64,000 bases of DNA from an uncultured Bifidobacteriaceae bacterium (lineage in GTDB: Bacteria; Bacteroidota; Bacteroidia; UKL13-3). The translations under genes were made by a program, and so were the position numbers. The stretch lies in the NCBI GenBank assembly GCA_964392775.1, contig CAYMRD010000011.1, forward strand, positions 40,410 through 104,409. The letters are read 5' to 3'. Positions 3,107 through 42,475 of the stretch are shown here, piece after piece (within the stretch, counting starts at the first letter, position 1; each line of letters begins with the position of its first letter). Below the pieces are notes generated by a model. It ran no database searches, was not told the origin of the DNA, and saw only the letters and a program-made list of their open reading frames with translations.

Positions 3107-3330
3107 ATGGTGATGTTGTAATATAGTGTTAATAATTCATTCAATGTATATCCGCAAGTGTTCCCAAATGCATATTTGGCACGGCTTTGTGGCGAGAGAT
3201 CTTTGCCACTAAGCCAAAGGGGCTCAAAGTATCACTAAGTTTAAATTCTACTGGTAAGCTTGCAGATATACACTTCATTTTATCCATTTAATTTGTGGAA
3301 ATTTTCTCTCAACACACTTTTACAACATAT
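3107..3330 (-). repeat. Copy 1 of a ~220-bp structured element (inverted paralogue of 25328-25545, ~95% identical), immediately upstream of the minus-strand T9SS gene
   Basis: Reverse complement aligns base-for-base with 25328-25545, with about 12 mismatches. Contains 15-bp terminal inverted repeats and internal hairpins. Confidence 0.8.
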
Positions 3331-10790: not shown

Positions 10791-10906
10791 ATTTTTATTG
10801 CACATTGTTTGTTTTAAACGTTATGCCCGCGTGAGCGATTGCAGCGGAAATCCTTTTGCGTTGGGCTTGCAGGTAAGGAGCAAAAGATTTGAGCGAAAAG
10901 CGCGAC

Positions 10907-10972
10907 CCTGCAAGGATGTGCCACTACTTTGCCTTTTGATTAACCGAAATGCTGCTGCACATCCTTGCAGGG
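10907..10972 (+). other. Perfect 16-bp inverted repeat (ccctgcaaggatgtgc / gcacatccttgcaggg) with a 35-nt loop, 100 bp upstream of ccmC
   Basis: Arms at 10907-10922 and 10957-10972 are exact reverse complements. Confidence 0.85.
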
Positions 10973-11076
10973 ACACGCCCACTCTTAACTGTTGGTACTC
11001 TAAAAGCACTCGATATGAGGTTTTTAAATTTGCTTTCGGGTAGAGCTTCTCCCGAAATAATTCCTACATTTGCACC

Positions 11077-21777: not shown

Positions 21778-22743
21778 TTGGAATTTATGTCAAATACTCC
21801 CGAAAAAATTGAATGTTTAATCATTGGCAGCGGACCTGCCGGTTATACTGCTGCGATTTATGCTGCCAGAGCTGATATGAAACCTGTAGTTTATGCGGGT
21901 ATGCAACCCGGTGGTCAGTTGACCATCACCACTGATGTGGAAAATTATCCGGGTTATCCTGATGGAATCATGGGTCCTGAAATGATGGAAAACTTCCGCA
22001 AACAAGCCGAACGCTTGGGTGCTGATATTCGTTACGGGATGGTTACAAAGGTTGATTTTACAGGAAAACCACCCTATAAAGTTATTGTGGATGAAAAACA
22101 GGAAATCCTTGCCGAAACAGTAATCATTTCAACCGGAGCATCGGCTAAATGGTTGGGTATACCTTCCGAAGAAAAACTGAATGGATATGGTGTTTCAGCT
22201 TGTGCTGTATGTGACGGATTTTTCTTCCGCGGTAAAGATGTAGCCATTGTTGGAGCTGGTGATACCGCTTGTGAAGAGGCCAGCTACCTTGCCAAAATAT
22301 GTAACAAAGTATACATGATTGTACGCAGAGATGAGTTCCGCGCCAGCAAAGCCATGCAGCACCGTGTGATGAATACACCCAATATTGAGGTGTTGTTTAA
22401 CAGTGAAACAGATGAGATTTTAGGTGAAACCAAAGTGGAAGGAGCCCGAATCAAAAACAATCAAACCGGAGATGCCAAAGAAATCAGCATTCAGGGATTT
22501 TTTGTGGCAATTGGTCACCAGCCGAATACCGAAATTTTCAAACCATATATTACTATGGATGAAACCGGTTATATCATTACCCAGCCTGATTCTTCAAAAA
22601 CCAATGTAGAGGGCGTGTTTGCCTGTGGCGATGCGCAGGATAAAATTTACCGTCAGGCTGTTACAGCTGCAGGAAGCGGATGTATGGCAGCCTTGGATGC
22701 CGAACGTTACCTGTCGGCTAAACACCATGCCGCGGCTCATTAA
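21778..22743 (+). CDS. trxB: Thioredoxin-disulfide reductase
   Basis: FAD motif IIGSGPAGYTAAIYAAR, redox-active CAVCDG, and an NADPH motif. Confidence 0.9.
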   Translation: MEFMSNTPEKIECLIIGSGPAGYTAAIYAARADMKPVVYAGMQPGGQLTITTDVENYPGYPDGIMGPEMMENFRKQAERLGADIRYGMVTKVDFTGKPPYKVIVDEKQEILAETVIISTGASAKWLGIPSEEKLNGYGVSACAVCDGFFFRGKDVAIVGAGDTACEEASYLAKICNKVYMIVRRDEFRASKAMQHRVMNTPNIEVLFNSETDEILGETKVEGARIKNNQTGDAKEISIQGFFVAIGHQPNTEIFKPYITMDETGYIITQPDSSKTNVEGVFACGDAQDKIYRQAVTAAGSGCMAALDAERYLSAKHHAAAH

Positions 22744-22758
22744 TTAAAAATAAATGAC

Positions 22759-22856
22759 TATCGGGATATTGCCCCCCTGCCCCCTGCCCCTGGCGGGGAC
22801 TAGCCGCACACTTTCTAAAAGACTTTAGGGTTAGGGGGCAGGGGGCAATATTCCGA
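22759..22856 (+). repeat. Long GC-rich palindromic element: 24-bp arms (atcgggatattgccccctgccccc / gggggcagggggcaatattccgat, 23/24 paired) around a 50-nt loop that contains the ccgcacactttctaaaagac core
   Basis: Direct reading. It overlaps the first ATG of the downstream ORF. Confidence 0.8.
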
Positions 22857-22876
22857 TGGTCAGTAAAAATAAATCT

Positions 22877-23722
22877 ATGAAATATATTTTGGTATGGGTT
22901 GCTCTGGCAGCAGCCCAAATAAGTATCGCACAACGTAACTGTTGTTCTGTTAACAATGTAACCATGAACAATGCTGCATTGGCCATGAATGATGCCTTTG
23001 TGCAAGCCCATGCCGAACCTAAAGCCTTTACCCTCGAAAATCCTAAAGGGGAGATGGTGGAGTTTGCTACAACTGATGGTAAAATGGCTAAGGCTTACTT
23101 GATTAAGCCGGCCCGCAAAAGCAAAAAATACCTGTTTGTGTTTCACGAATGGTGGGGATTGAATGACTATATCAAAAAAGAAGCAGAGCAATATGCGGCC
23201 GATTTAAAAGATGTAAATGTACTGGCTATTGATTTGTACGATGGACAGGCTGCTACAACCCGGGAAGATGCAGCAAAACTCATGGGTGCAATGACGGATG
23301 CCCGGGCACGGGCGATTGTGAACGGAGCCTTGACCTTTGCCGGAAAAAAAGCAATGGTAGCCACAACAGGTTGGTGTATGGGCGGAGCCTGGAGCTTGCA
23401 AACAGCTATTGAAGGACAGCAAAAAGTGGTAGGATGTGTGATGTATTACGGGTTTCCGGAGATGAATGTAGAAAAGCTAAAACTGTTGCAAACAGATATT
23501 CTCGGTATTTTTGCCGAGAAAGATGCTTTCATCAATGTTGAAACAGTAAAGGAGTTTGAAGGAAAAGTGAAAGAAGCAGGGAAAAGCATTACAGTATACA
23601 ACTATGTTGCAGTTCATGCTTTTGCCAATCCGAGCAATCCTGATTATAATGCACAGGCAACGAAAGAAGCTTATGACAACAAGGTGCTTCCGTATTTAAA
23701 AGCCCGTCTTAAAGTAAAATAA
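22877..23722 (+). CDS. Dienelactone hydrolase family protein (secreted)
   Basis: FHEWWGLNDY motif, nucleophile context GWCMGGAW, and a signal peptide. Start trimmed to MKYIL to clear the palindrome. Confidence 0.7.
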   Translation: MKYILVWVALAAAQISIAQRNCCSVNNVTMNNAALAMNDAFVQAHAEPKAFTLENPKGEMVEFATTDGKMAKAYLIKPARKSKKYLFVFHEWWGLNDYIKKEAEQYAADLKDVNVLAIDLYDGQAATTREDAAKLMGAMTDARARAIVNGALTFAGKKAMVATTGWCMGGAWSLQTAIEGQQKVVGCVMYYGFPEMNVEKLKLLQTDILGIFAEKDAFINVETVKEFEGKVKEAGKSITVYNYVAVHAFANPSNPDYNAQATKEAYDNKVLPYLKARLKVK

Positions 23723-25297: not shown

Positions 25298-25327
25298 TAC
25301 AAACTATCTTCGATGAAAAATAAACGA

Positions 25328-25545
25328 CATGTTGTAAAAGAGTGTTGAGAGAAAATTGCCACAAATTAAATGGATAAAATGAAGTGTATATCTGCAAGCT
25401 TACCAGTAGAATTTAAACTTAGTGATACTTTGAGCCTTCGTGGCTTAGTGGCAAAGAACTCTCGCCACAAAGCCGTGCCAAATATACATTTGGGAACACT
25501 TGCGGATATACATTGAATGAATCATCAACACTATCATTACAACAT
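25328..25545 (+). repeat. Copy 2 of the ~220-bp structured element, ending 14 nt before the rsmG ATG
   Basis: ~95% identical to the reverse complement of 3107-3330. TIRs gtgtatatctgcaag / cttgcggatatacat. Internal hairpins ggcttagtggc...gccacaaagcc and ccaaatatacatttgg. Contains tacatttg, a TAnnTTTG match. Confidence 0.8.
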
Positions 25546-25559
25546 CACCAAAATAAACA

Positions 25560-26192
25560 ATGGATATTCTGCTCAAGTACTTTCCCGATTTAACCGGAAA
25601 GCAACAGCAACAATTTGAAGCTGCTTTTAACACATACAAAGAGTGGAACGAAAAAATCAATGTTGTATCACGTAAAGACATTGATTCGTTATTCGAAAAA
25701 CATATTCTCCACTCGCTGGCCATAGCCAAATTTGTTCAGTTTCGCCCCGATACTCATGTGCTGGATATTGGCACGGGAGGCGGATTTCCGGGTATTCCGT
25801 TGAGTATTATGTTTCCCGAAACAAACTTTACACTTTGCGATTCAATCGCTAAAAAAATCAAAGTTGCCGAAACGGTTTCCGAAACCATCGGGTTGATGAA
25901 TACTGATTTTGTGATTGGCAGGGTAGAGCAGCTCAAAGAAAGTTTCGACTTTATTGTGAGCCGTGCCGTTGCTCCCTGTGAGCAGCTATACCGCTGGACA
26001 CAGCATTATATCAACGAAGAAAACAATAACCCTAAGTTTAATGGTTACTTGTTACTTAAAGGAGGTGATTTAAAAGAAGAGATTAAAGCCCTGCGCCAAA
26101 TCAATAAAAAATTGATTGTTGAAGAGTTTGCTTTGAGCCAGTGGTTTGAAGAAGAATTTTTTGAAACAAAAAAGCTGGTGTATATCTATTAA
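25560..26192 (+). CDS. rsmG: 16S rRNA (guanine527-N7)-methyltransferase RsmG
   Basis: GidB-family N-terminus and SAM motif DIGTGGGFPGIPL. Confidence 0.85.
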   Translation: MDILLKYFPDLTGKQQQQFEAAFNTYKEWNEKINVVSRKDIDSLFEKHILHSLAIAKFVQFRPDTHVLDIGTGGGFPGIPLSIMFPETNFTLCDSIAKKIKVAETVSETIGLMNTDFVIGRVEQLKESFDFIVSRAVAPCEQLYRWTQHYINEENNNPKFNGYLLLKGGDLKEEIKALRQINKKLIVEEFALSQWFEEEFFETKKLVYIY

Positions 26193-26198
26193 ACAAAA

Positions 26199-26230
26199 AC
26201 AGCAAGTAACGAATAGTACTTGCTGTTTTT
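26199..26230 (+). terminator. Hairpin plus T-run between convergent rsmG and the T9SS gene
   Basis: cagcaagta-acgaatag-tacttgctg followed by ttttt. Confidence 0.6.
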
Positions 26231-26248
26231 ACTTAAAAGATTTTGCAG

Positions 26249-28903
26249 TTAGTTTTTAATAAACTTATTGGCATACGATTGTTTTCCATCAGTTACCACA
26301 ACAAAATACACGCCTGATTGTAAGTGAGCTATACTAACAGATTCGTGTGCATTTCCGCTCAATAATCTTCTACCCGTAATATCCATAATTTGATAGGTGG
26401 CAGCTGGGGTTAGGCCACTTACTTGCAACGCAATACTTTGGGTTGCAGGATTAGGATATACAACAAGTGATTGGTGTTGTGCTGGTGCAGTTGTTTTTAT
26501 CCCCGTGGTCAAATCAAGGCAACTCGGGAATGATTGATTTGCATACCAGTTGCGAATCTTGTCAATATCGGTATCCAGTTTATTGAATGAACCGGTAGCA
26601 CCTCCTGAGGTAGTTCTCGAATACACAATAGCATATTCAATGGTATGTTTGTCGCCAGAAAGCACTTGACCCGGTACACTCAAGGTTGATAACATTCGTC
26701 TATCACCCGGAGTATTTCCTGAACTTCTTTCCGTCCAATCTGCTCGTCCGGCTAAGTCATTATTACCCGGGAACATAAAACTGGCTGTGTCAACTCCACC
26801 TTTTCCATCTCCACCATATGTAAGAAAGGTTCCATCTTTCCATTTGCTATTTAAATATCCCCAATAATGTTCAGGCCTTGATGGATTACCTTTGACTGAA
26901 AAATCGTTGTTGTAATACATAAAACCACTCATGTTATTGGTATTTGAGTGGTTATCTAGAATAGCAATCCCAACAGCAGGGGGATTGGCTCCATATCCCT
27001 GCATTCCTTCATCATCATCATCTCCATTATACCCAATTGCATAGTTTTTACTGGGGTTACATTCAATATAATCATCATTAAAATTTCCTAAATCAATATC
27101 TGTCCATATTCCATATTTTACCGTGTCGTATGTCTGATTGGTGCGGTTGTAAATATCGTATTGGTAAAAGGTTGTATAGTTTAAGGCAGTATTGCTATCG
27201 TTGTCTTGTATGTCATCACAGGTATACCCATAAGCCGAAGCATGAACCTCAAACTTTAAAGGAAGCCCTGTCGTTTCAGAATGAATACCTCCATTATCAT
27301 TAAAAATCCAAAACAACATTTGATCGCCTTTAATTTTAGGATAATCGCCATTCATAGGATTGTATTTGCCATCGCTATTAACATCCACAAAAGGGGCAAG
27401 CTTACTGGCATAACCATTTGCAGAGTCTCCATGAGCAGGCCAACTCATTAAGTTTTCAGGTACGGTATAGGTTCCGTCAGTAACTTTCCCGTCTGCAAAT
27501 TTTGTTTTAAATTCTTCAATAGTTTGTCTGTTTATTCTCCATATACGATCAAACTTTTGTTGGGTAGCGGCATCGGTTGAGGCAGTTCCTATGGTTAAAG
27601 GTCCGGGGAAATAATCATTCCCGCTCTGGCGATAGGTTTGCGCAGCTACATGGAGTTCATTATTGGTAACGCCCCCCATCCACAAGGCGGAGGCAAATAT
27701 TGCCCGTTTGCAGCTCCCTTTGGGTACTTCATAGCCTCCATTCTGTAAATCCCAAAACATATCCCCTCTGTTGAGAACAGGCGTACTTACCTTATTAATA
27801 TTGAGGTAGCTCATCGTTGGGACTTCGTCCACATCCGAATAGTTATTCAAATCAATCATAAATAAACTATCTCCCCCCGCATAACCATTTCTGGAACACC
27901 ACTGGAGCTGATTGGCAGAGGTAACAGCGCAGAATATACCATCCAGAGGAAAATTCGAATGCGATGGGTTTTTGTATGTGGTAGTCTTGTTTGCCTCCAG
28001 TTCTATGAATTGTATTTTACTTATATTTGAGCTCGTGAAATTTGAAGGAACAACAGGGTGAGTTCCTTTTATTCCAAACCCGTACACGTTATTCCGAAAT
28101 CCATTGCTGCCACAATAGTTGGTATATGCCTGAGCTGTACTAATCGTATTGCCTTGTACCGTATACACGCCTCCATAAATGTCGGAACCGGTCATTGTAG
28201 TGTCTGTGCCAATCCAGATTGCACCATTGGCTGTTTGTTCAATGGTATTTATTTTATCTGTTTTTAAACCGGAGTTTGTTTTGTTAAAAGTGCTCCATGT
28301 TCCATTTGACAGTTTAGATACTCCTTTGTCCGTTCCTATCCATACCTGACCGTTTTTATCAGCTAAAATAGTATTCACTTTATTATCAGCTATTGAATGA
28401 GAAGCCACGGTATAGCTCGTCCAAGTGCTTCCATCCAATTTAGAAACCCCATTGTTGGTTGCTACCCAAACAGTATTGTCGAAAACGGAAACATCGTAAA
28501 CCGAATCGCTTACAATACCTGAGTTACTTTGATTAAAGATGGTCCATGTATCACCCTCCTTTTTCACCAGACCGCTCAGGGTTCCTATCCACACTACTGA
28601 GCCTTTAATTTCTAAAGAAGTAAGAGAGTTGGTAGGTAAACTTGAGTTGTTCTTATTCCAGGTTGTCCATGTGGTTCCATCATATTTAGCCAAACCAATT
28701 GCAGAAGTCGTAAAGTTGATTCCCAGCTTACGGGTTCCAAAAGCAATCCAGGTATTGTTCTGGTCGTCAATTTTTAGGTCCGTTTTAATGCGCTTGTCTA
28801 ATGTTGTTCCGGTTGGTAATGCAACAGACGAGTAAGGACTTTGTGCCCCAATCTGTGATGTAACCACAGCTAGTCCAATCAATAGTAAAAGATGTTGTTT
28901 CAT
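26249..28903 (-). CDS. Large secreted beta-propeller (two-component-regulator-propeller-like repeats) protein with T9SS C-terminal sorting domain
   Basis: Signal peptide MKQHLLLLIGLAVVTSQIGA. Repeated W-I-G-T...G(V/L)SK-(L/F)-(D/S)G..W units. C-terminus VVYPNPATQSIALQV...GVYFVVV. Confidence 0.75.
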   Translation of the reverse strand: MKQHLLLLIGLAVVTSQIGAQSPYSSVALPTGTTLDKRIKTDLKIDDQNNTWIAFGTRKLGINFTTSAIGLAKYDGTTWTTWNKNNSSLPTNSLTSLEIKGSVVWIGTLSGLVKKEGDTWTIFNQSNSGIVSDSVYDVSVFDNTVWVATNNGVSKLDGSTWTSYTVASHSIADNKVNTILADKNGQVWIGTDKGVSKLSNGTWSTFNKTNSGLKTDKINTIEQTANGAIWIGTDTTMTGSDIYGGVYTVQGNTISTAQAYTNYCGSNGFRNNVYGFGIKGTHPVVPSNFTSSNISKIQFIELEANKTTTYKNPSHSNFPLDGIFCAVTSANQLQWCSRNGYAGGDSLFMIDLNNYSDVDEVPTMSYLNINKVSTPVLNRGDMFWDLQNGGYEVPKGSCKRAIFASALWMGGVTNNELHVAAQTYRQSGNDYFPGPLTIGTASTDAATQQKFDRIWRINRQTIEEFKTKFADGKVTDGTYTVPENLMSWPAHGDSANGYASKLAPFVDVNSDGKYNPMNGDYPKIKGDQMLFWIFNDNGGIHSETTGLPLKFEVHASAYGYTCDDIQDNDSNTALNYTTFYQYDIYNRTNQTYDTVKYGIWTDIDLGNFNDDYIECNPSKNYAIGYNGDDDDEGMQGYGANPPAVGIAILDNHSNTNNMSGFMYYNNDFSVKGNPSRPEHYWGYLNSKWKDGTFLTYGGDGKGGVDTASFMFPGNNDLAGRADWTERSSGNTPGDRRMLSTLSVPGQVLSGDKHTIEYAIVYSRTTSGGATGSFNKLDTDIDKIRNWYANQSFPSCLDLTTGIKTTAPAQHQSLVVYPNPATQSIALQVSGLTPAATYQIMDITGRRLLSGNAHESVSIAHLQSGVYFVVVTDGKQSYANKFIKN

Positions 28904-29015
28904 AATAATTAAGCGTTTAATCGTAATTATAAAAGTATGTGTAATATCGGTTAAAGTCAAGATGTATATGTATCTCTAATTAAGAAACCTTTAGTATATT
29001 GTACATTCGAACACT

Positions 29016-36340: not shown

Positions 36341-37573
36341 ATGTCTACACTTACCAAATACCACAAACAACGATTGTTTCCCAATTTGATGGATGCCGTG
36401 CTCAACTGTACCCGTCAGATATTTTTTGAGAAACGGTATGCCGATAAAGCCATTGAACGGATGCTGCAAAGCAATCCTAAATGGGGAGCCCGCGATAGAG
36501 CCTTTATTGCCGAATACACGTATGATATGGTTCGCTGGTGGCGGTTATTGGCATATATAGCCGGTGTGCCCGAAACGGAAACCGGAACACGTATGCACCA
36601 GTTGTTTGCTGCTTTATGGGTGTGGAATGGCAACGACTTACCCGATTGGGATGTGTTCAGAGGATTCGACAAAGTTAAAATGCTGAAACGTTTTGATGAT
36701 GCCCAACATATTAGAACCATTCGCGAATCCATTCCTGATTGGCTGGATGCCCTTGGTGAGCGTGAGTTAGGAGATGCGTGGGATGCTGAAATAAAAGCCA
36801 TGAACGAGCAGGCTCCGTTAATTGTAAGAGCCAACCGTTTAAAAACAAGCAAGGCCAAATTGCTTTCGCGCATGGAGCAGGAAGGCATTGAAGTATCGGA
36901 AGTGGCCGGGGTTCCCGATGCGATTGAAATTCACAAACGCATTAATTTGTTTACCACTCCTTTTATCAAAGAAGGATGGATAGAAGTGCAGGATGCAGCC
37001 TCACAACTGGTGGCCGGGTATGTAGATGTAAAACCCGGAATGCGGGTGATTGATGCCTGTGCCGGTGCCGGAGGAAAATCGTTGCATCTGGCTGCATTGA
37101 TGGAAAACAAAGGGCGTATCATCTCTATGGATGTAGAATCCTTTAAACTCGAAGAACTCAAACGCAGGGCACGCAGGGCAGGAGCGGGAATCATCGAAAC
37201 ACGTGTGATTGAATCGGCTAAAACCATTAAACGTTTACAGGAAACAGCCGATAGGGTATTGCTGGATGTACCTTGCAGCGGCTTGGGTGTATTGCGCAGA
37301 AACCCTGATGCCAAGTGGAAACTGGGCCTCGATTTTATTGTTTCAGTTCGCAAAACACAGCAGGATATTTTGAACCAGTATTCGCAAATGCTGAAACCCG
37401 GAGGTAAATTGGTGTATGCTACTTGCAGTATTTTGCCGAGTGAAGATGAACATCAGGTAGAGCAGTTTTTAGCTGCTCATCCCGAATATACACTGGAAGA
37501 ACAATACCGTGTATCGGTTGCCGAAACAGGGTTTGACGGATTTTTTATGGCCCGCCTGAGCAAAAAAGGTTAG
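36341..37573 (+). CDS. rsmB: 16S rRNA (cytosine-C5)-methyltransferase RsmB with NusB-like N-domain
   Basis: NusB-like N-terminus, VIDACAGAGGKSLHLA, LLDVPCSGLGVLRR and ATCS motifs. Confidence 0.75.
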   Translation: MSTLTKYHKQRLFPNLMDAVLNCTRQIFFEKRYADKAIERMLQSNPKWGARDRAFIAEYTYDMVRWWRLLAYIAGVPETETGTRMHQLFAALWVWNGNDLPDWDVFRGFDKVKMLKRFDDAQHIRTIRESIPDWLDALGERELGDAWDAEIKAMNEQAPLIVRANRLKTSKAKLLSRMEQEGIEVSEVAGVPDAIEIHKRINLFTTPFIKEGWIEVQDAASQLVAGYVDVKPGMRVIDACAGAGGKSLHLAALMENKGRIISMDVESFKLEELKRRARRAGAGIIETRVIESAKTIKRLQETADRVLLDVPCSGLGVLRRNPDAKWKLGLDFIVSVRKTQQDILNQYSQMLKPGGKLVYATCSILPSEDEHQVEQFLAAHPEYTLEEQYRVSVAETGFDGFFMARLSKKG

Positions 37574-37589
37574 CGGATTAATCGCGGTA

Positions 37590-37705
37590 TTGTCCTCCGC
37601 ACCCTCTAATCCAAAATGGAGTTCCGCACACAGTTCTAATTGACAGGCGTAGGCATGCGGCTGGCCCCCTTTCAGGGGCAGGGATGAGCGGGGGGAGCTG
37701 ACAAA
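37590..37705 (+). repeat. Intergenic mosaic repeat (member B): tandem ccgcacMc..tctaat half-sites, gttctaattgacagg block, ccccctttcaggggcaggg palindrome
   Basis: Shares an exact 14-nt gttctaattgacag with 18740-18753 and the ccgcacac core with 22803 and 40123. Confidence 0.7.
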
Positions 37706-37710
37706 AACGG

Positions 37711-38784
37711 TTAAGCTTCGCTTGTATGCGGTTCTCCGGGGTTATTGATCCAAGCCGTTAACAATTTGTATCCAATAGAAAGCACAATGGCTCCGGTAAA
37801 CAAACCAATAAAGCCCGACATCATAAACCCTCCGATAACCCCTAAGAAGATTACAAGCATGGGAACGGGAGCGCCTTTACCCAATAAAATGGGTTTTAAA
37901 ATATTATCGGAGGTAAGCACCACCGCAAAATAAATGCTCCATAAAGTGGCAGTCATCGTATCGCCCTGCATAAAAAGGTAAATGGCGGACGGAATCAGAA
38001 CCAACGCAGGACCCACCTGTACAATGGATAAAATCAGGCACGCTAAAATCCAAATGCCGGCATGTGGAATATGGGAAAGGTATAATCCGAATCCGGCAAG
38101 GATGGATTGTATAACGGCAACACCCAACACCCCTTTTACCACATTGCGGATAGTAGCTGTTATCAATTTCACAAACTCCTCTCCGCGGTCGTCAATGAAC
38201 TTATTCAGAATGGTATGGGCGGCCTGCTCGGTACCTCCTGTTGCCAGTAATACTCCGGCAATAATGATGGATAACAATACCTGAAGAATACCCAGTCCGG
38301 TGCCTACAATGGCATTTAACACATTACGGGAAACATTGGTGATTTCCGACTGGTATTGCTGAACAAACACTTCTGTATTTTCGGTAAGCAAGGTGAGTAT
38401 ATCATACAGTTTTTTGCCAATAACAGGCCAGTCTTTAACCGATTCTTTGGGACCATAAATGGTCAGAGTGCCATTGTCAATTTGCTCTTTAAAGAATGTA
38501 GCACTATCGGTAAGTGAGCTTACAAACATTGAAACCGGAATAATTAAAACAGCCAGCATAAAAAGTGTAAGCAGTACGGCTGTCAGGGTTTGTTTATTGC
38601 CCAAACGTTTTTGGAGCATCATCTGAAGCGGGTATACAGCCACGGCAATAATGATTCCCCACAAAACGGGTTGGATAAAAGGAGATAAGATCTGGAAACA
38701 CCAATATAAAATAAGGATGAGTAAGGCCAGACGGAGAAAAATTTCAATGGCCTGAGTGGTGGGTTTGTTGGATGGAGTAGTCAT
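37711..38784 (-). CDS. AI-2E family (PerM/YhhT-like) transporter
   Basis: 357 aa, 8 TM, with the characteristic loop/TM arrangement. Confidence 0.75.
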   Translation of the reverse strand: MTTPSNKPTTQAIEIFLRLALLILILYWCFQILSPFIQPVLWGIIIAVAVYPLQMMLQKRLGNKQTLTAVLLTLFMLAVLIIPVSMFVSSLTDSATFFKEQIDNGTLTIYGPKESVKDWPVIGKKLYDILTLLTENTEVFVQQYQSEITNVSRNVLNAIVGTGLGILQVLLSIIIAGVLLATGGTEQAAHTILNKFIDDRGEEFVKLITATIRNVVKGVLGVAVIQSILAGFGLYLSHIPHAGIWILACLILSIVQVGPALVLIPSAIYLFMQGDTMTATLWSIYFAVVLTSDNILKPILLGKGAPVPMLVIFLGVIGGFMMSGFIGLFTGAIVLSIGYKLLTAWINNPGEPHTSEA

Positions 38785-39666: not shown

Positions 39667-40026
39667 ATGAAGAAATTCAATGCCTTGTTTCTGTTATCCT
39701 TATTCCTGCTGGTAATTGCCTTTCCGGGATACGGTCGCAGTGTGCAAAGCAGTTCCGGAAGCTGTAAGGAGCAATTTTCCGAAACATCCACATCCCTTGA
39801 TCAATTACTCAAACGTTGCCTGCAAACGGGAATTAACCTCATGGAAGAAGAACGGGTCAACGAAGAAGGGGATGATTCATCTTCCTCAGCTCTTTGTTTT
39901 ATATTAGACAGACAGGCTTCGCTCTTAGAGTTTAAAGCAGATATACTGAGCTATTTTACCAATCATTCCTTTAGTTTATTAGAGATTACACTGATGGGTA
40001 ACTACCCGCCTCCCGATTGTATTTGA
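39667..40026 (+). CDS. Hypothetical secreted protein (119 aa)
   Basis: Signal peptide MKKFNALFLLSLFLLVIAFPGYG. Starts 1 nt after the GT2 stop. Confidence 0.4.
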   Translation: MKKFNALFLLSLFLLVIAFPGYGRSVQSSSGSCKEQFSETSTSLDQLLKRCLQTGINLMEEERVNEEGDDSSSSALCFILDRQASLLEFKADILSYFTNHSFSLLEITLMGNYPPPDCI

Positions 40027-40094
40027 TTGTCTTTTTGTTTTTTAGGCTATCTTAGATAAAGGTAGTTGTATTTATTAAGTGACTGTGGGGAAGA

Positions 40095-40185
40095 TGTCAA
40101 TTTACCCCTGAAAGAGAACCAACCGCACACCTTCTAAAAAACTTGTACGAGGAATTCCCTTTGGGGTCGGGTGGGGCGGAGGATA
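40095..40185 (+). repeat. Intergenic mosaic repeat (member C): cccctgaaag ... ccgcacaccttctaaaaaac ... ccctttggggtcgggtggggcgg
   Basis: The core ccgcacacYttctaaaaRac is shared with 22803-22822. Confidence 0.7.
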
Positions 40186-40234
40186 AAAGAAGTTTACCTG
40201 AAACAGTTTTCATTATATAGCACATCAATCATAC

Positions 40235-42475
40235 ATGAGAGACGAAGTTAATATACAGTCTGTATCGACAAAGTATTTAAGATATGACCTTCCGGCAGGT
40301 ATAGCCGTGTTTTTTGTGGCGGTTCCACTCTGTTTAGGAATTGCCCACGCCTCGGGAGCCCCTCTTATTTCGGGTTTAATTACCGGAATTATCGGAGGTG
40401 TCATTACCGGGCTTATCAGCAACTCACAGCTAAGTGTAAGCGGGCCGGCCGCAGGTTTAACAGCCATTGCCATTGCCGGAATCGCAAGCCTGGGTTCTTT
40501 TGAAGCTTTTTTACTGGCTACCGTTATTGCCGGACTTATACAAATTGTTCTGGGGTCTTTAAAAGCCGGCTTCATAGCCACCTATATTCCCAATACCATA
40601 ATCAAGGGAATGTTATCAGCCATCGGATTAATCCTTATTATTAAACAGTTTCCCCATCTGATAGGATACGATATTGAGGCCATGGGGGTACAGGAATTTA
40701 ATGACACCATTCAGGATATGAATGTGCAGCATGCTCCGGGGTCCAATTCGTTTACCATCTTTTTAGAAGGTTTCAACAACTTACATTCCGGAGTTTTGGT
40801 TATTGGATTGGCGAGCGTGTTTTTTCTGGTGATCTGGGACAAATTTTTCCAACACCGCTTCAAAACCTTACCGGGTTCGTTGCTGGTGGTTTTATTAGGC
40901 GTTGCCATTAATTATATCGTTGAACACTGGCTGTTTAATATGCCTTTAGGAGCTGATCATTTTGTGAATATTCCTAAAATCGACAATATTTCGGAGTTTA
41001 TGTATATCAGCACGTTTCCCGATTGGAAATCACTGGCCAATTACTCCGTGTATACTACGGCCTTTACCATTGCGGTGGTTGCATCCATCGAAACCTTGTT
41101 ATCGGTAGAGGCGGTTGATAAACTGGATCCGATGAAACGAAGCACTCCGGCCAATCGAGAACTCGTGGCGCAGGGGATTGGAAATACGCTTGCCGGATTA
41201 TTCGGAGGATTGCCTATGACAGCCGTTATTGTTCGGGGTTCGGTGAACGTTTCGGCAGGAGCGCACACCAAACTGTCAGCCATATTGCATGGTACATTTA
41301 TTTTGGTAGCCGTTATTTTTCTGTCATCGCTGATGAACATGATTCCGTTAGCCAGTCTGGCAGCCGTATTGATTTACACCGGATATAAATTGCTGGCTCC
41401 TCAGTTGCTGGTGGAGCAATACCGCAAAGGATTGGGTCAGTTTGTTCCGTTCATTGTTACCGTTGTAGCGATTGTGTTTACGGATCTGCTTATCGGAGTA
41501 GGGTTGGGTATAACCATATCCTTGTTTTTTATTGTCAAAGAAGACTATAAAGGCACAGTGCTGAAAGTAAGCGATATGGGCAGACGTAAACGGATTGTAT
41601 TAGGTGAAAATATCACCTTCCTGCACAGGCCTAAATTCGTCAAAATATTAAGTCAGATACCCGAAGGGAGTATCCTCGAAATTGACGGATCCCGAAACCA
41701 TTTTATCGATAAAGACATCCTTGAACTTATTACCAGCTTTAAAGAAAAAGCAGCTCAACAAAATATTGAACTCATTATCGGAGGACTAAAACAAATGCAA
41801 AACGAAGATTTAAAAGAAAGCATGCGCAAATCATACGAGCGCTTATTTGAAAATAACGAAAAGTGGATCGCTAACCGCCAAAAAGAAGATCCTGAATACT
41901 TTAATAAATTGTCGGTGGGGCAAACACCACAGTATTTATTCATTGGATGCTCGGACAGCCGGGTTCCGGCAAATGAGATTACCGGAACAGATGCCGGTGA
42001 CATGTTTGTACACCGCAATATTGCCAATATGGTTGTCAATACTGATATCAACATGTTGTCGGTGGTACAATATTCGGTTGAAGTATTAAATGTAAAACAC
42101 ATCATTGTTTGTGGTCATTATGGTTGTGGTGGAGTGAAAGAAGCCATGCATCACCGCTCAAACGGTATTATTGATAAATGGTTGCGAAACATCAAAGATG
42201 TGATGCGTTTGCACAAAGCCGAACTGGATCATATACATGATGATGATCAACGCTACCGCAGATTGATTGAGTTGAATGTAAAAGAGCAGGTAGTAAACCT
42301 GATGAAAATATCATTCATTCAAAAAAACAGGGCCCAATACGGGTTTCCCGAAGTACACGGCTGGGTGTATGACATCAGCAACGGAAAACTTATTGACATG
42401 AAGGTTGATATTGAAAAAGAGTTCCCTGAGTACAATGATTTGTACAAGATTGACACCGAAGAAAATTCTATTTAA
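40235..42475 (+). CDS. SulP-family anion transporter with STAS domain fused to C-terminal beta-carbonic anhydrase
   Basis: N-terminal SulP TM core and a STAS region. C-terminal CSDSRV...HxxCGG beta-CA zinc ligands (aa ~530-746). Confidence 0.8.
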   Translation: MRDEVNIQSVSTKYLRYDLPAGIAVFFVAVPLCLGIAHASGAPLISGLITGIIGGVITGLISNSQLSVSGPAAGLTAIAIAGIASLGSFEAFLLATVIAGLIQIVLGSLKAGFIATYIPNTIIKGMLSAIGLILIIKQFPHLIGYDIEAMGVQEFNDTIQDMNVQHAPGSNSFTIFLEGFNNLHSGVLVIGLASVFFLVIWDKFFQHRFKTLPGSLLVVLLGVAINYIVEHWLFNMPLGADHFVNIPKIDNISEFMYISTFPDWKSLANYSVYTTAFTIAVVASIETLLSVEAVDKLDPMKRSTPANRELVAQGIGNTLAGLFGGLPMTAVIVRGSVNVSAGAHTKLSAILHGTFILVAVIFLSSLMNMIPLASLAAVLIYTGYKLLAPQLLVEQYRKGLGQFVPFIVTVVAIVFTDLLIGVGLGITISLFFIVKEDYKGTVLKVSDMGRRKRIVLGENITFLHRPKFVKILSQIPEGSILEIDGSRNHFIDKDILELITSFKEKAAQQNIELIIGGLKQMQNEDLKESMRKSYERLFENNEKWIANRQKEDPEYFNKLSVGQTPQYLFIGCSDSRVPANEITGTDAGDMFVHRNIANMVVNTDINMLSVVQYSVEVLNVKHIIVCGHYGCGGVKEAMHHRSNGIIDKWLRNIKDVMRLHKAELDHIHDDDQRYRRLIELNVKEQVVNLMKISFIQKNRAQYGFPEVHGWVYDISNGKLIDMKVDIEKEFPEYNDLYKIDTEENSI

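What the first reader, a model, noticed from the sequence alone, without database searches (positions are those of the whole stretch)
22759..22856. 98-bp compound palindrome between trxB and a hydrolase gene, carrying the ccgcacacYttctaaaaRac core also found at 37.6 and 40.1 kb
Arms of 24 nt (23/24 paired) enclose a loop that itself has a cccctggcgggg mini-hairpin and the core ccgcacactttctaaaagac. Near-identical cores occur at 40123-40142 (ccgcacaccttctaaaaaac) and, in duplicated half-site form, at 37603-37644. All three sites are intergenic and flanked by C4-G4 style stems. There is no U-tract on the trxB strand, so it is not a plain terminator. The properties fit a REP/BIME-like repetitive extragenic palindrome family or a small structured RNA.
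Basis: seen in the sequence. Interest (0 to 1): 0.5.

Follow-up and report, generated by a model that had tools for sequence, protein, structure and literature searches.

The report
Small mobile palindromic element (MITE-like) family
The palindrome between trxB and the hydrolase gene is a 108-bp non-coding mobile element that inserted into a 14-nt gene spacer and duplicated 11 bp of it, and two older, decayed relatives lie at 37.6 and 40.1 kb; this is an ordinary kind of bacterial "junk" transposon, not a REP element or a structured RNA.

Summary
Positions 22756-22861 form a 28/29-nt-armed palindrome (2 mismatches, 1 bulge; RNA fold -73.5 kcal/mol, z = -10). The 20-nt core recurs at 40123-40142 (18/20; 0.02 expected by chance).

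The new finding is that the palindrome is bracketed by an exact 11-bp direct repeat, TAAAAATAAAT. That 11-mer occurs nowhere else in the 64 kb.

The closest sister lineage found (DLH protein 86% identical, same gene order) has only an 18-nt trxB-DLH spacer. That spacer matches the window with the element and one repeat copy removed. The same sister scaffolds also lack the 37.6-kb and 40.1-kb segments. The 37.6-kb segment is flanked by a 10/11 direct repeat that duplicates the overlapping stop codons of two convergent genes.

The three segments are significantly similar pairwise. The 37.6-kb copy aligns best in reverse orientation. Only the 22.8-kb copy folds significantly.

The best reading is a lineage-specific, diverged family of MITE-like non-autonomous transposable elements with 11(-13)-bp target-site duplications. 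It is not REP/RAYT and not an sRNA. No transposase and no further copies were found, and genome-wide copy number could not be tested. This is a new member of a known kind, of low interest.

The parts
22745..22755 (.). Left copy of the 11-bp target-site duplication, TAAAAATAAAT. It begins 1 nt after the trxB stop codon.
   Evidence: The 11-mer occurs exactly twice in the 64 kb, at the two edges of the palindrome. Shuffles give 0.25 expected anywhere.
22756..22863 (+). e22k: a 108-bp MITE-like element, the compound palindrome of the finding. It is 59% G+C in a 42% G+C window.
   Evidence: It is absent from sister scaffolds L006, L007 and L008, whose trxB-DLH spacer is 18 nt.
22756..22784 (+). 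Left terminal inverted repeat, GACTATCGGGATATTGCCCCCCTGCCCCC.
   Evidence: 26 matches, 2 mismatches and 1 bulge against the right arm.
22787..22798 (+). Internal mini-hairpin, CCCC-TGGC-GGGG.
   Evidence: The homologous CCCCTGAAAGGGG lies in e37k on the - strand, and CCCCTGAAAGAG in e40k.
22804..22823 (+). Core, CCGCACACTTTCTAAAAGAC. The similarity to e40k runs on through ACTT to 22825.
   Evidence: The block is 20/22 identical to e40k.
22834..22861 (-). Right terminal inverted repeat (reverse complement GACCATCGGAATATTGCCCCCTGCCCCC). It is followed by AG (22862-22863) before the duplication.
22864..22874 (.). Right copy of the 11-bp target-site duplication, TAAAAATAAAT. It is followed by CT and the DLH start ATG at 22877.
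37562..37572 (.). Left direct repeat of e37k, AAAAAAGGTTA. It contains the end of the RsmB-like gene, whose stop codon TAG is at 37571-37573.
   Evidence: The sister has a single AAAAAAGGTTAA in which the two convergent stop codons overlap.
37573..37702 (-). e37k: a 130-bp decayed family member. It aligns best to e22k and e40k in reverse orientation. It carries CCGCACAC at 37624-37631 and the hairpin GCCCCCTTTCAGGGGC at about 37664-37679.
   Evidence: It is an insertion relative to L036/L037: window +153 nt against 7 nt in the sister. Smith-Waterman scores against shuffles: reverse-complement versus e22k 30 (1 of 1000), reverse-complement versus e40k 29 (0 of 1000).
37703..37713 (.). Right direct repeat of e37k, AAAAACGGTTA (10/11 identical to the left repeat). 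It contains the stop codon of the AI-2E transporter gene on the - strand (37711-37713).
40078..40205 (+). e40k: a decayed family member of about 128 bp, upstream of the SulP-carbonic anhydrase gene (ATG at 40235). Its boundaries are approximate. The best flanking repeat is only 8/10 (GTATTTATTA at 40068 and GTTTTCATTA at 40206).
   Evidence: It is an insertion relative to L036/L037 (spacer 64 nt against 208 nt) and is also absent in L038. Smith-Waterman score against e22k is 34, with 0 of 1000 shuffles reaching it.
40123..40142 (+). Core copy, CCGCACACCTTCTAAAAAAC.

Best explanation
The 98-bp palindrome is the body of a 108-bp non-coding, non-autonomous transposable element (MITE-like, 22756-22863). 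It has terminal inverted repeats of about 28 nt. It inserted into the AT-rich 14-nt spacer between trxB and the dienelactone-hydrolase gene and duplicated 11 bp of it (13 bp if one mismatch is allowed). The segments at 37573-37702 and about 40078-40205 are older, decayed members of the same family. The shared 'core' is simply the best-preserved internal block of the family.

The inferred mechanism is as follows. A transposase encoded elsewhere in the genome binds the inverted ends and makes cuts staggered by about 11 nt in an AT-rich target. Gap repair then produces the flanking direct repeats. The insertion, the duplications, the empty sites and the family relationship are shown here. The involvement of a DDE-type transposase, its identity, and any present-day effect of the hairpin on the trxB-DLH transcript are inferred.
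For: (1) Target-site duplication. TAAAAATAAAT occurs only at 22745-22755 and 22864-22874, abutting the element.

(2) Empty site. The nearest relative found (DLH protein 86% identical) has the same gene order: uvrC, a Por-tail gene, trxB, DLH, brxC, a GT2 gene. Its sequence there is TAA-TTTAAAAACTAAAAACTA-ATG. The window with the element and one repeat removed reads TAA-TTAAAAATAAATCT-ATG.

(3) The second copy is flanked by AAAAAAGGTTA and AAAAACGGTTA. In the sister, a single GGTTAA holds the overlapping stop codons of two convergent genes. The duplication leaves both reading frames intact.

(4) Of the five window-specific insertions in the 37-kb syntenic block, three are these segments.

(5) Pairwise local alignment scores exceed 1000 dinucleotide shuffles: e22k-e40k 34 (0 of 1000), e37k(rc)-e40k 29 (0 of 1000), e22k-e37k(rc) 30 (1 of 1000). 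A common architecture appears in alignment A4.

(6) The inverted ends match at 26 positions, with 2 mismatches and 1 bulge. The element is small and non-coding, and it is 59% G+C against 42% for the window.

(7) The same genome carries another clear MITE, so mobilising activity exists in this lineage.

(8) Target duplications of about 10 bp are typical of IS4-family DDE transposases (PMC2266710).
Against: No transposase and no full-length IS with matching ends were found. No transposase domain turned up among the 28 window ORFs scanned against Pfam.

Only three copies, highly diverged from one another, were seen in about 76 kb of the source genome. Exact-pattern scans found no related copy in 185,579 species genomes (core pattern), in JGI metagenomes (end pattern; 27 single hits, all unrelated sequence, several clearly conserved coding sequence) or in viral contigs.

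Short-read contigs of the same organism read straight through e22k, which I take to mean there is no near-identical second copy in those samples. That sits oddly with its almost perfect arms and perfect duplication.

e40k has no convincing duplication (best 8/10). e37k and e40k have only vestigial inverted ends. The termini (GAC...GTC) do not match the 5'-CAT ends reported for the IS231 and ISH8 subgroups of IS4, so the parent family is unknown.
Confidence: 0.75

Rival explanations
1. REP/BIME or REPIN-type extragenic palindrome, spread by a RAYT (an IS200/IS605-like HUH/Y1 transposase) encoded elsewhere.
For: It is an intergenic, G+C-rich imperfect palindrome. It has two inverted arms separated by about 50 nt, like a REPIN doublet, and several copies per region.
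Against: Two copies are flanked by 11-bp direct repeats of different, AT-rich target sequence. HUH/Y1 single-strand transposition does not produce such repeats (established knowledge). The arms are not themselves short REP hairpins, and no conserved GTAG-type head is visible. No Y1 transposase was found among the scanned window ORFs. The copies are not clustered in BIME-like arrays.
Confidence: 0.05
2. A structured small RNA or cis-regulatory RNA (for example a leader or insulator for DLH and SulP-CA). The core would be a functional motif upstream of + strand genes.
For: The hairpin is very stable (z = -10). Both arm mismatches are G.U-compatible only on the sense strand. The core lies upstream of a + strand gene at 22.8 and 40.1 kb, and also in a Haliscomenobacter MAG hit. 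The core block is 20/22 identical, against 58% identity for the rest of e22k versus e40k.
Against: There was no Rfam family; only sub-threshold generic miRNA-hairpin hits appeared. e37k and e40k do not fold better than shuffles. The consensus fold is -10.6 kcal/mol with a covariation term of +1.67. The element is absent upstream of the orthologous genes in every relative examined. The core is not enriched across 185,579 species genomes: 3 hits, one of them inside a reading frame of a MATE-like transporter (my reading of the translation). The extra conservation of the core is not significant after correcting for about 80 window positions (P about 0.07). The sense-strand G.U pattern is expected 1 time in 4 by chance.
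Confidence: 0.05
3. e22k is a lone insertion, and the 37.6-kb and 40.1-kb segments are unrelated insertions or divergent spacers that share short motifs by chance. In other words, there is no family.
For: The forward-orientation similarity of e22k to e37k is weak (score 20; 70 of 1000 shuffles reach it). The 8-mer CCGCACAC is at chance level. Overall identity between copies is only about 55-67%. The profile search found no other copies.
Against: Three of the six pairwise orientation tests exceed 999 or more of 1000 composition-matched shuffles. The alignments are long, about 40 and about 90 nt. All three segments are window-specific insertions of 108-130 bp. Two of them have duplications of the same 11-bp length.
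Confidence: 0.12
4. A hairpin that evolved in place as a terminator or mRNA-stabilising element between trxB and DLH, by local duplication or inversion of spacer sequence.
For: It lies directly after a stop codon. More distant relatives have their own, unrelated hairpins in this spacer (L040).
Against: There is no U-tract on the sense strand, and the terminator scan found none. The G+C-rich body has no similarity to the AT-rich spacer. The exact 11-bp flanking repeat plus related copies at two other loci point to import rather than local origin.
Confidence: 0.03

Closest known systems
Bacterial MITEs: Correia elements of Neisseria, ERIC/IRU of enterobacteria and RUP of Streptococcus pneumoniae (recalled from memory), and the MITEs described in Porphyromonas gingivalis, also phylum Bacteroidota (PMC4596501)
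   Same: The element is 100-230 bp, non-coding and intergenic. It has terminal inverted repeats that make the whole element a long imperfect palindrome. It carries flanking target-site duplications, shows presence/absence between related lineages, and its copies decay with age.
   Different: No sequence similarity to any deposited element was found (plasmids and phages by blastn; core and end patterns in genome, metagenome and viral collections). The duplication is 11(-13) bp, unlike the TA duplication I recall for Correia elements. No parent IS is known, and copy number could only be sampled (3 copies in about 76 kb).
IS4-family insertion sequences and their MITE derivatives (for example MIC231 of Bacillus cereus, recalled from memory)
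   Same: The target duplication is of about one helical turn. IS4-family members generate duplications of about 10 bp (PMC2266710). The short inverted ends would be recognised in trans.
   Different: The termini here are GAC...GTC, not the 5'-CAT ends reported for the IS231 and ISH8 subgroups. No DDE transposase gene is in the window. Assignment to IS4 is only a lead from duplication length.
REP/BIME/REPIN elements with RAYT transposases
   Same: They are extragenic, G+C-rich palindromic repeats lying between genes, and they can form long hairpins in mRNA.
   Different: The element here carries target-site duplications. No RAYT is present in the window. The arms are 28 nt and are not themselves REP hairpins. 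There are no BIME-type arrays.

Membership tests
MITE (non-autonomous DDE-type transposable element) | Small (less than about 600 bp) and without coding capacity. | tested here: met
   The copies are 108, 130 and about 128 bp. They contain only short incidental open frames.
MITE (non-autonomous DDE-type transposable element) | Terminal inverted repeats. | tested here: met
   e22k has arms of 28/29 nt with 2 mismatches and 1 bulge. In e37k only a C-rich/G-rich remnant pairs. In e40k they are essentially lost.
MITE (non-autonomous DDE-type transposable element) | Flanking target-site duplication of fixed length but variable sequence. | tested here: met
   e22k is 11/11. e37k is 10/11 and duplicates the sister's overlapping stop codons. 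e40k is unclear, at 8/10.
MITE (non-autonomous DDE-type transposable element) | Insertion polymorphism: an empty site in related genomes. | tested here: met
   All three sites are empty in sister scaffolds L006, L007, L008, L036 and L037. The 40-kb site is also empty in L038.
MITE (non-autonomous DDE-type transposable element) | Multiple copies dispersed in the genome. | tested here: inconclusive
   Three diverged copies were found in about 76 kb, and none in a further 12 kb of the same organism. The rest of the genome is not available to the tools. Contigs reading straight through e22k argue against near-identical copies.
MITE (non-autonomous DDE-type transposable element) | A cognate autonomous IS with the same ends and a transposase. 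| not testable with these tools
   No transposase was found among the 28 window ORFs scanned. The end pattern found only unrelated sequence, mostly coding, in metagenomes. The source genome is not in the searchable genome collection.
REP/BIME/REPIN (RAYT-mobilised) | Insertion without target-site duplication. | tested here: not met
   11-bp direct repeats flank e22k and e37k.
REP/BIME/REPIN (RAYT-mobilised) | A RAYT (Y1/HUH transposase) gene associated with the repeats. | tested here: inconclusive
   None was found among the scanned window ORFs. The rest of the genome is unseen.
REP/BIME/REPIN (RAYT-mobilised) | A short (20-40 nt) REP hairpin unit with a conserved 5' tetranucleotide, in high copy number. 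| tested here: not met
   The arms are not self-complementary units, and the only shared internal hairpin is CCCCTGnnnGGGG. The core and end patterns are not enriched in any collection scanned.
Structured non-coding RNA family (Rfam-type) | Secondary structure conserved among members, or a match to a curated family. | tested here: not met
   No Rfam match reached threshold. Fold z-scores were -0.63 and +1.48 for two of the three copies. The alifold energy was -10.6 kcal/mol with a covariation term of +1.67.

The most novel reading that the evidence does not exclude
After insertion, the element, or its best-kept 20-22-nt core, has been co-opted. One possibility is that the -73 kcal/mol hairpin now acts as an insulator or mRNA-stabilising structure splitting the formerly tight trxB-DLH-brxC redox operon. 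Another is that the core is a protein-binding or promoter module delivered upstream of + strand genes by the element. The hints are that both arm mismatches are wobble-compatible on the sense strand only, and that the core is 20/22 conserved where the rest is 58%. Neither is statistically significant here.
Probability: 0.12. Interest if true: 0.4.

Novelty: new member of a known kind. Interest (0 to 1): 0.2.

Why it matters
The finding explains an eye-catching palindrome as an ordinary mobile-element insertion, so it need not be pursued as a regulatory RNA or a REP system. It has modest value in three respects. It documents two previously undescribed MITE families in an uncultured Bacteroidota lineage. 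It shows such elements landing precisely in 14-nt and zero-nt gene spacers while preserving both neighbours, because the duplication regenerates the stop codons. It also gives a lineage marker, and a natural experiment on what a very strong hairpin does inside a trxB-DLH-brxC operon.

Tried and rejected
1. The genome-contig scan for CCGCACACNTTCTAAAANAC gave 3 hits: a Clostridia MAG, a Haliscomenobacter MAG upstream of what looks by eye like a glycoside-hydrolase-type gene, and a hit inside a reading frame of a MATE-like transporter (my reading of the translation). By my rough estimate (about 17 expected for 18 specified bases in about 1.2e12 positions) this is no more than chance. The source genome is not in that collection.

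2. The metagenome-contig scan for the arm GGGGGCAATATYCCGATRG gave 27 single hits. All are unrelated sequence, several of them groups of near-identical conserved coding sequence. None has a partner arm or the core.

3. The viral-contig scan for the core gave 0 hits.

4. blastn of the element against the plasmid and phage collections gave no match.

5. Rfam at gathering thresholds and at E <= 10 gave only sub-threshold generic hairpin (miRNA precursor) hits.

6. A profile (nhmmer) built from the three copies, searched against the window and 44 loci, found no further copy.

7. Extending the source genome through window-end proteins gained only about 12 kb and no copies.

8. I looked by eye for a promoter reading of the core (Bacteroidota TTTG / TAnnTTTG). 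There was no convincing match on either strand, so I dropped it.

9. A test for extra constraint on the core gave P about 9e-4 per window, about 0.07 after correction, which is not significant.

10. I considered translating the element and using the last protein-database search to fish for miscalled ORFs over other copies. I did not run it: only near-identical copies could score, and contig continuity argues there are none.

Full report
**1. What is in the sequence**

The region between the trxB stop codon (TAA, 22741-22743) and the start of the dienelactone-hydrolase (DLH) gene is 133 nt long. The trxB gene is 21787-22743. The DLH gene (PF01738) starts at ATG 22877, the start used by an independent gene call on an identical metagenome contig.

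The spacer contains a long imperfect palindrome.
- The left arm is 22756-22784. The right arm is 22834-22861.
- The arms match at 26 positions, with 2 mismatches and one single-base bulge.
- The 49-nt centre carries the mini-hairpin CCCCTGGCGGGG (22787-22798) and the 'core' CCGCACACTTTCTAAAAGAC (22804-22823).

As RNA, the + strand folds at -73.5 kcal/mol, against -39.2 +/- 3.4 for 200 dinucleotide shuffles (z = -10). The - strand folds at -62.0 (z = -6.4). No U-tract follows the hairpin on the trxB strand, and the terminator scan found nothing.

The degenerate core, allowing up to 3 mismatches, has two hits in the window, at 22804 and 40123. The expectation is 0.02.

They do not match the 20-mer, and the shared 8-mer occurs 3 times against 1.56 expected.

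**2. The new fact: a flanking 11-bp direct repeat**

The palindrome is bracketed by TAAAAATAAAT at 22745-22755 and again at 22864-22874. This 11-mer occurs nowhere else in the 64 kb. An inverted-repeat element flanked by a short direct repeat of AT-rich host sequence is the signature of transposition with a staggered target cut.

**3. Empty sites in relatives**

The exact trxB and DLH proteins occur on short metagenome contigs (L004, L005) that are identical to the window, element included.

The closest different lineage found has a DLH protein 86% identical and a SulP-carbonic anhydrase protein 88% identical. Its loci are L006, L007, L008, L036 and L037. It keeps the same gene order: uvrC, a Por-tail gene, trxB, DLH, brxC, a GT2 gene, gidB and onward to rsmB, an AI-2E transporter gene, a GT2 gene, a small ORF and SulP-CA.

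At the trxB-DLH junction it reads TAA-TTTAAAAACTAAAAACTA-ATG, an 18-nt spacer. Removing the element and one repeat copy from the window gives TAA-TTAAAAATAAATCT-ATG, which is plainly the same short AT-rich spacer.

More distant relatives have 50-nt (L039) and 140-nt (L040) spacers that are unrelated in sequence to the element.

**4. The other two sites are insertions too**

A blastn comparison of the window with the merged sister scaffold shows five window-specific insertions in the 37-kb syntenic block:

| Window interval | Extra sequence in window |
|---|---|
| 22750-22877 | +115 nt |
| 25322-25546 | +233 nt |
| 26190-28995 | +2.8 kb |
| 37572-37732 | +153 nt |
| 39900-40222 | +144 nt |

*The 37.6-kb site.* In the sister, the stop codons of the convergent rsmB-like and AI-2E transporter genes overlap in a single GGTTAA. 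In the window, a 130-bp segment (37573-37702) separates AAAAAAGGTTA (37562-37572) from AAAAACGGTTA (37703-37713). This is again an 11-bp direct repeat, 10/11 identical. Each copy supplies the 3' end of one of the two genes, so both reading frames stay intact.

*The 40.1-kb site.* The sister spacer before SulP-CA is 64 nt, against 208 nt in the window. A 79%-identical relative (L038) also lacks the extra segment. The boundaries are about 40078-40205, and the best flanking repeat is only 8/10.

**5. Are the three segments one family?**

Local alignment scores were compared with 1000 dinucleotide shuffles:

| Pair | Orientation | Score | Shuffles reaching it |
|---|---|---|---|
| e22k vs e40k | forward | 34 | 0 of 1000 |
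| e37k vs e40k | reverse complement | 29 | 0 of 1000 |
| e22k vs e37k | reverse complement | 30 | 1 of 1000 |
| e22k vs e37k | forward | 20 | 70 of 1000 |
| e37k vs e40k | forward | 20 | 21 of 1000 |

The reverse-complement alignments are long, about 40 and about 90 nt. With e37k turned round, the three share one architecture (alignment A4), in this order:
- a C-rich arm;
- CCCCTG(nnn)GGGG;
- CYARCCGCA(C/T)(A/G)C;
- TCTAAAA-like sequence;
- GGAAYTCC-TTTGG (in e40k and e37k);
- a G-rich arm, GGGGCGGAGGA-CAATA-CGAT.

So the 37.6-kb copy lies in the opposite orientation to the other two.

Only e22k folds significantly; e37k has z = -0.63 and e40k z = +1.48. The consensus structure of the three copies is weak (-10.6 kcal/mol) and its covariation term is unfavourable (+1.67).

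A profile of the three copies finds no further member in the window, in about 12 kb of additional sequence from the same organism, or in about 80 kb from relatives.

**6. Searches outside the window**

- The core pattern has 3 hits in 185,579 species genomes. By my rough estimate, about 17 would be expected by chance. One hit is inside a reading frame of a MATE-like transporter (my reading of the translation), and none has the arms.
- The arm pattern has 27 single hits in JGI metagenomes. All are unrelated sequence, several of them groups of near-identical conserved coding sequence.
- Viral contigs, plasmids and phages gave nothing.
- Rfam gave nothing at gathering thresholds apart from a tRNA and Flavo-1 RNA elsewhere in the window. 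At relaxed thresholds it gave only generic miRNA-precursor hairpin hits far below their cut-offs.
- None of the 28 window ORFs scanned against Pfam carries a transposase or Y1/HUH domain.

**7. Interpretation**

The shown facts are:
- small non-coding elements;
- inverted ends;
- 11-bp duplications of different AT-rich targets;
- empty sites in the nearest relative at all three loci;
- significant mutual similarity.

Together these fit a family of MITE-like non-autonomous transposable elements. e22k is the youngest copy, with near-perfect arms and a perfect duplication. e37k and e40k are decayed.

The inferred step is mobilisation in trans by a transposase that makes cuts staggered by about 11 nt. 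Duplications of about 10 bp are characteristic of IS4-family DDE enzymes (PMC2266710). However, the termini here (GAC...GTC) do not match the 5'-CAT ends reported for the IS231 and ISH8 subgroups of IS4, and no parent IS was seen. The parent family therefore remains unknown.

Several points weaken the case:
- Copy number could only be sampled.
- No near-identical sibling of e22k seems to exist in the samples. Short-read contigs read straight through e22k, whereas they break inside the other MITE of this genome.
- e40k lacks a clear duplication.

I put 0.75 on the MITE-family reading.

**8. Rivals**

*REP/BIME/REPIN with a RAYT* fails on a tested defining feature. HUH/Y1 transposition makes no target duplication, and here there are two. 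No RAYT or REP-type unit is seen either (0.05).

*A structured sRNA or leader* fails on lack of conserved structure, lack of any Rfam match, and absence from orthologous positions in relatives (0.05).

Two hints of function were checked and neither is significant. Both arm mismatches are G.U-compatible on the sense strand only, which is expected 1 time in 4 by chance. The core is 20/22 identical against 58% elsewhere, which gives P about 0.07 after correction.

*'No family, three unrelated insertions'* keeps about 0.12 because the similarity, though significant, is modest. *Local origin as a terminator* gets about 0.03.

**9. Consequences (inferred, not tested)**

The e22k insertion splits a spacer that was 14-18 nt, and so probably an operon trxB-DLH-brxC, with a very stable hairpin. 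The duplication regenerates the AT-rich 13 nt in front of the DLH start codon.

e37k separates two convergent genes whose stop codons formerly overlapped. e40k sits about 30 nt upstream of the SulP-CA start codon.

Each copy could affect read-through, mRNA stability or promoter spacing. None of this can be tested with the present tools.

**10. Verdict**

The mechanism is transposon-like rather than REP-like or RNA-like. This is a new, unnamed member of a well-known kind (bacterial MITEs) in an uncultured Bacteroidota lineage. That phylum assignment rests on the Flavo-1 RNA hit, the T9SS sorting domains, and the source names of relatives. Interest is low, at 0.2.

Noticed in passing
window 25326-25549 (+) and 3109-3328 (-): A second, unrelated MITE family ('MITE2') of 224 bp. 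The two copies are 95% identical. The ends are GACATGTTGTAA... and GTGATGTTGTAA.... The 25.3-kb copy has a 9-bp flanking repeat, AAAATAAAC, and is absent from the sister scaffold, where the GT2-gidB spacer is about 35 nt. Four short-read contigs of the same organism (L004, L005, L043, L044) end inside it, as expected for a multi-copy repeat.
   Followed up: partly
window 26190-28995: A 2.8-kb window-specific segment that is absent from the sister scaffold. It holds a single 903-aa gene on the - strand (26249-28960), with Reg_prop propeller repeats and a T9SS C-terminal sorting domain.
   Followed up: partly
window 10821-10911 and 10900-10978: A Flavo-1 RNA match (55.7 bits; gathering score 42), immediately followed and overlapped by a 22-nt inverted repeat (10900-10921 / 10957-10978, 91% complementary).
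   Followed up: no
window 22759/22858 and 22765/22852: Both mismatches between the e22k arms are transitions that give G.U wobble pairs on the + (trxB-sense) strand and C.A mismatches on the - strand. This explains the fold energies of -73.5 and -62.0 kcal/mol. It is expected 1 time in 4 by chance.
   Followed up: partly
L040 2360-2500 and L006 10850-10930: Relatives carry their own unrelated hairpins in neighbouring spacers of the same operon. One is GTAACGGTAGT...ACTACCGTTAC after trxB, on a 3.66-Mb JGI contig. The other is an 80-nt DLH-brxC spacer with CTGTTGAGGTGGA...TCCATCTCAACA in the sister, where the window has only 2 nt.
   Followed up: no
L002 1853-1890: In a Haliscomenobacter MAG the core pattern, plus the following ACTTTT, lies 12 nt upstream of the likely ATG of a roughly 745-aa secreted protein. 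By eye it resembles a glycoside hydrolase; this was not scanned against a family library. The hit is judged a chance match, because hits across 185,579 genomes are no more frequent than my chance estimate.
   Followed up: partly
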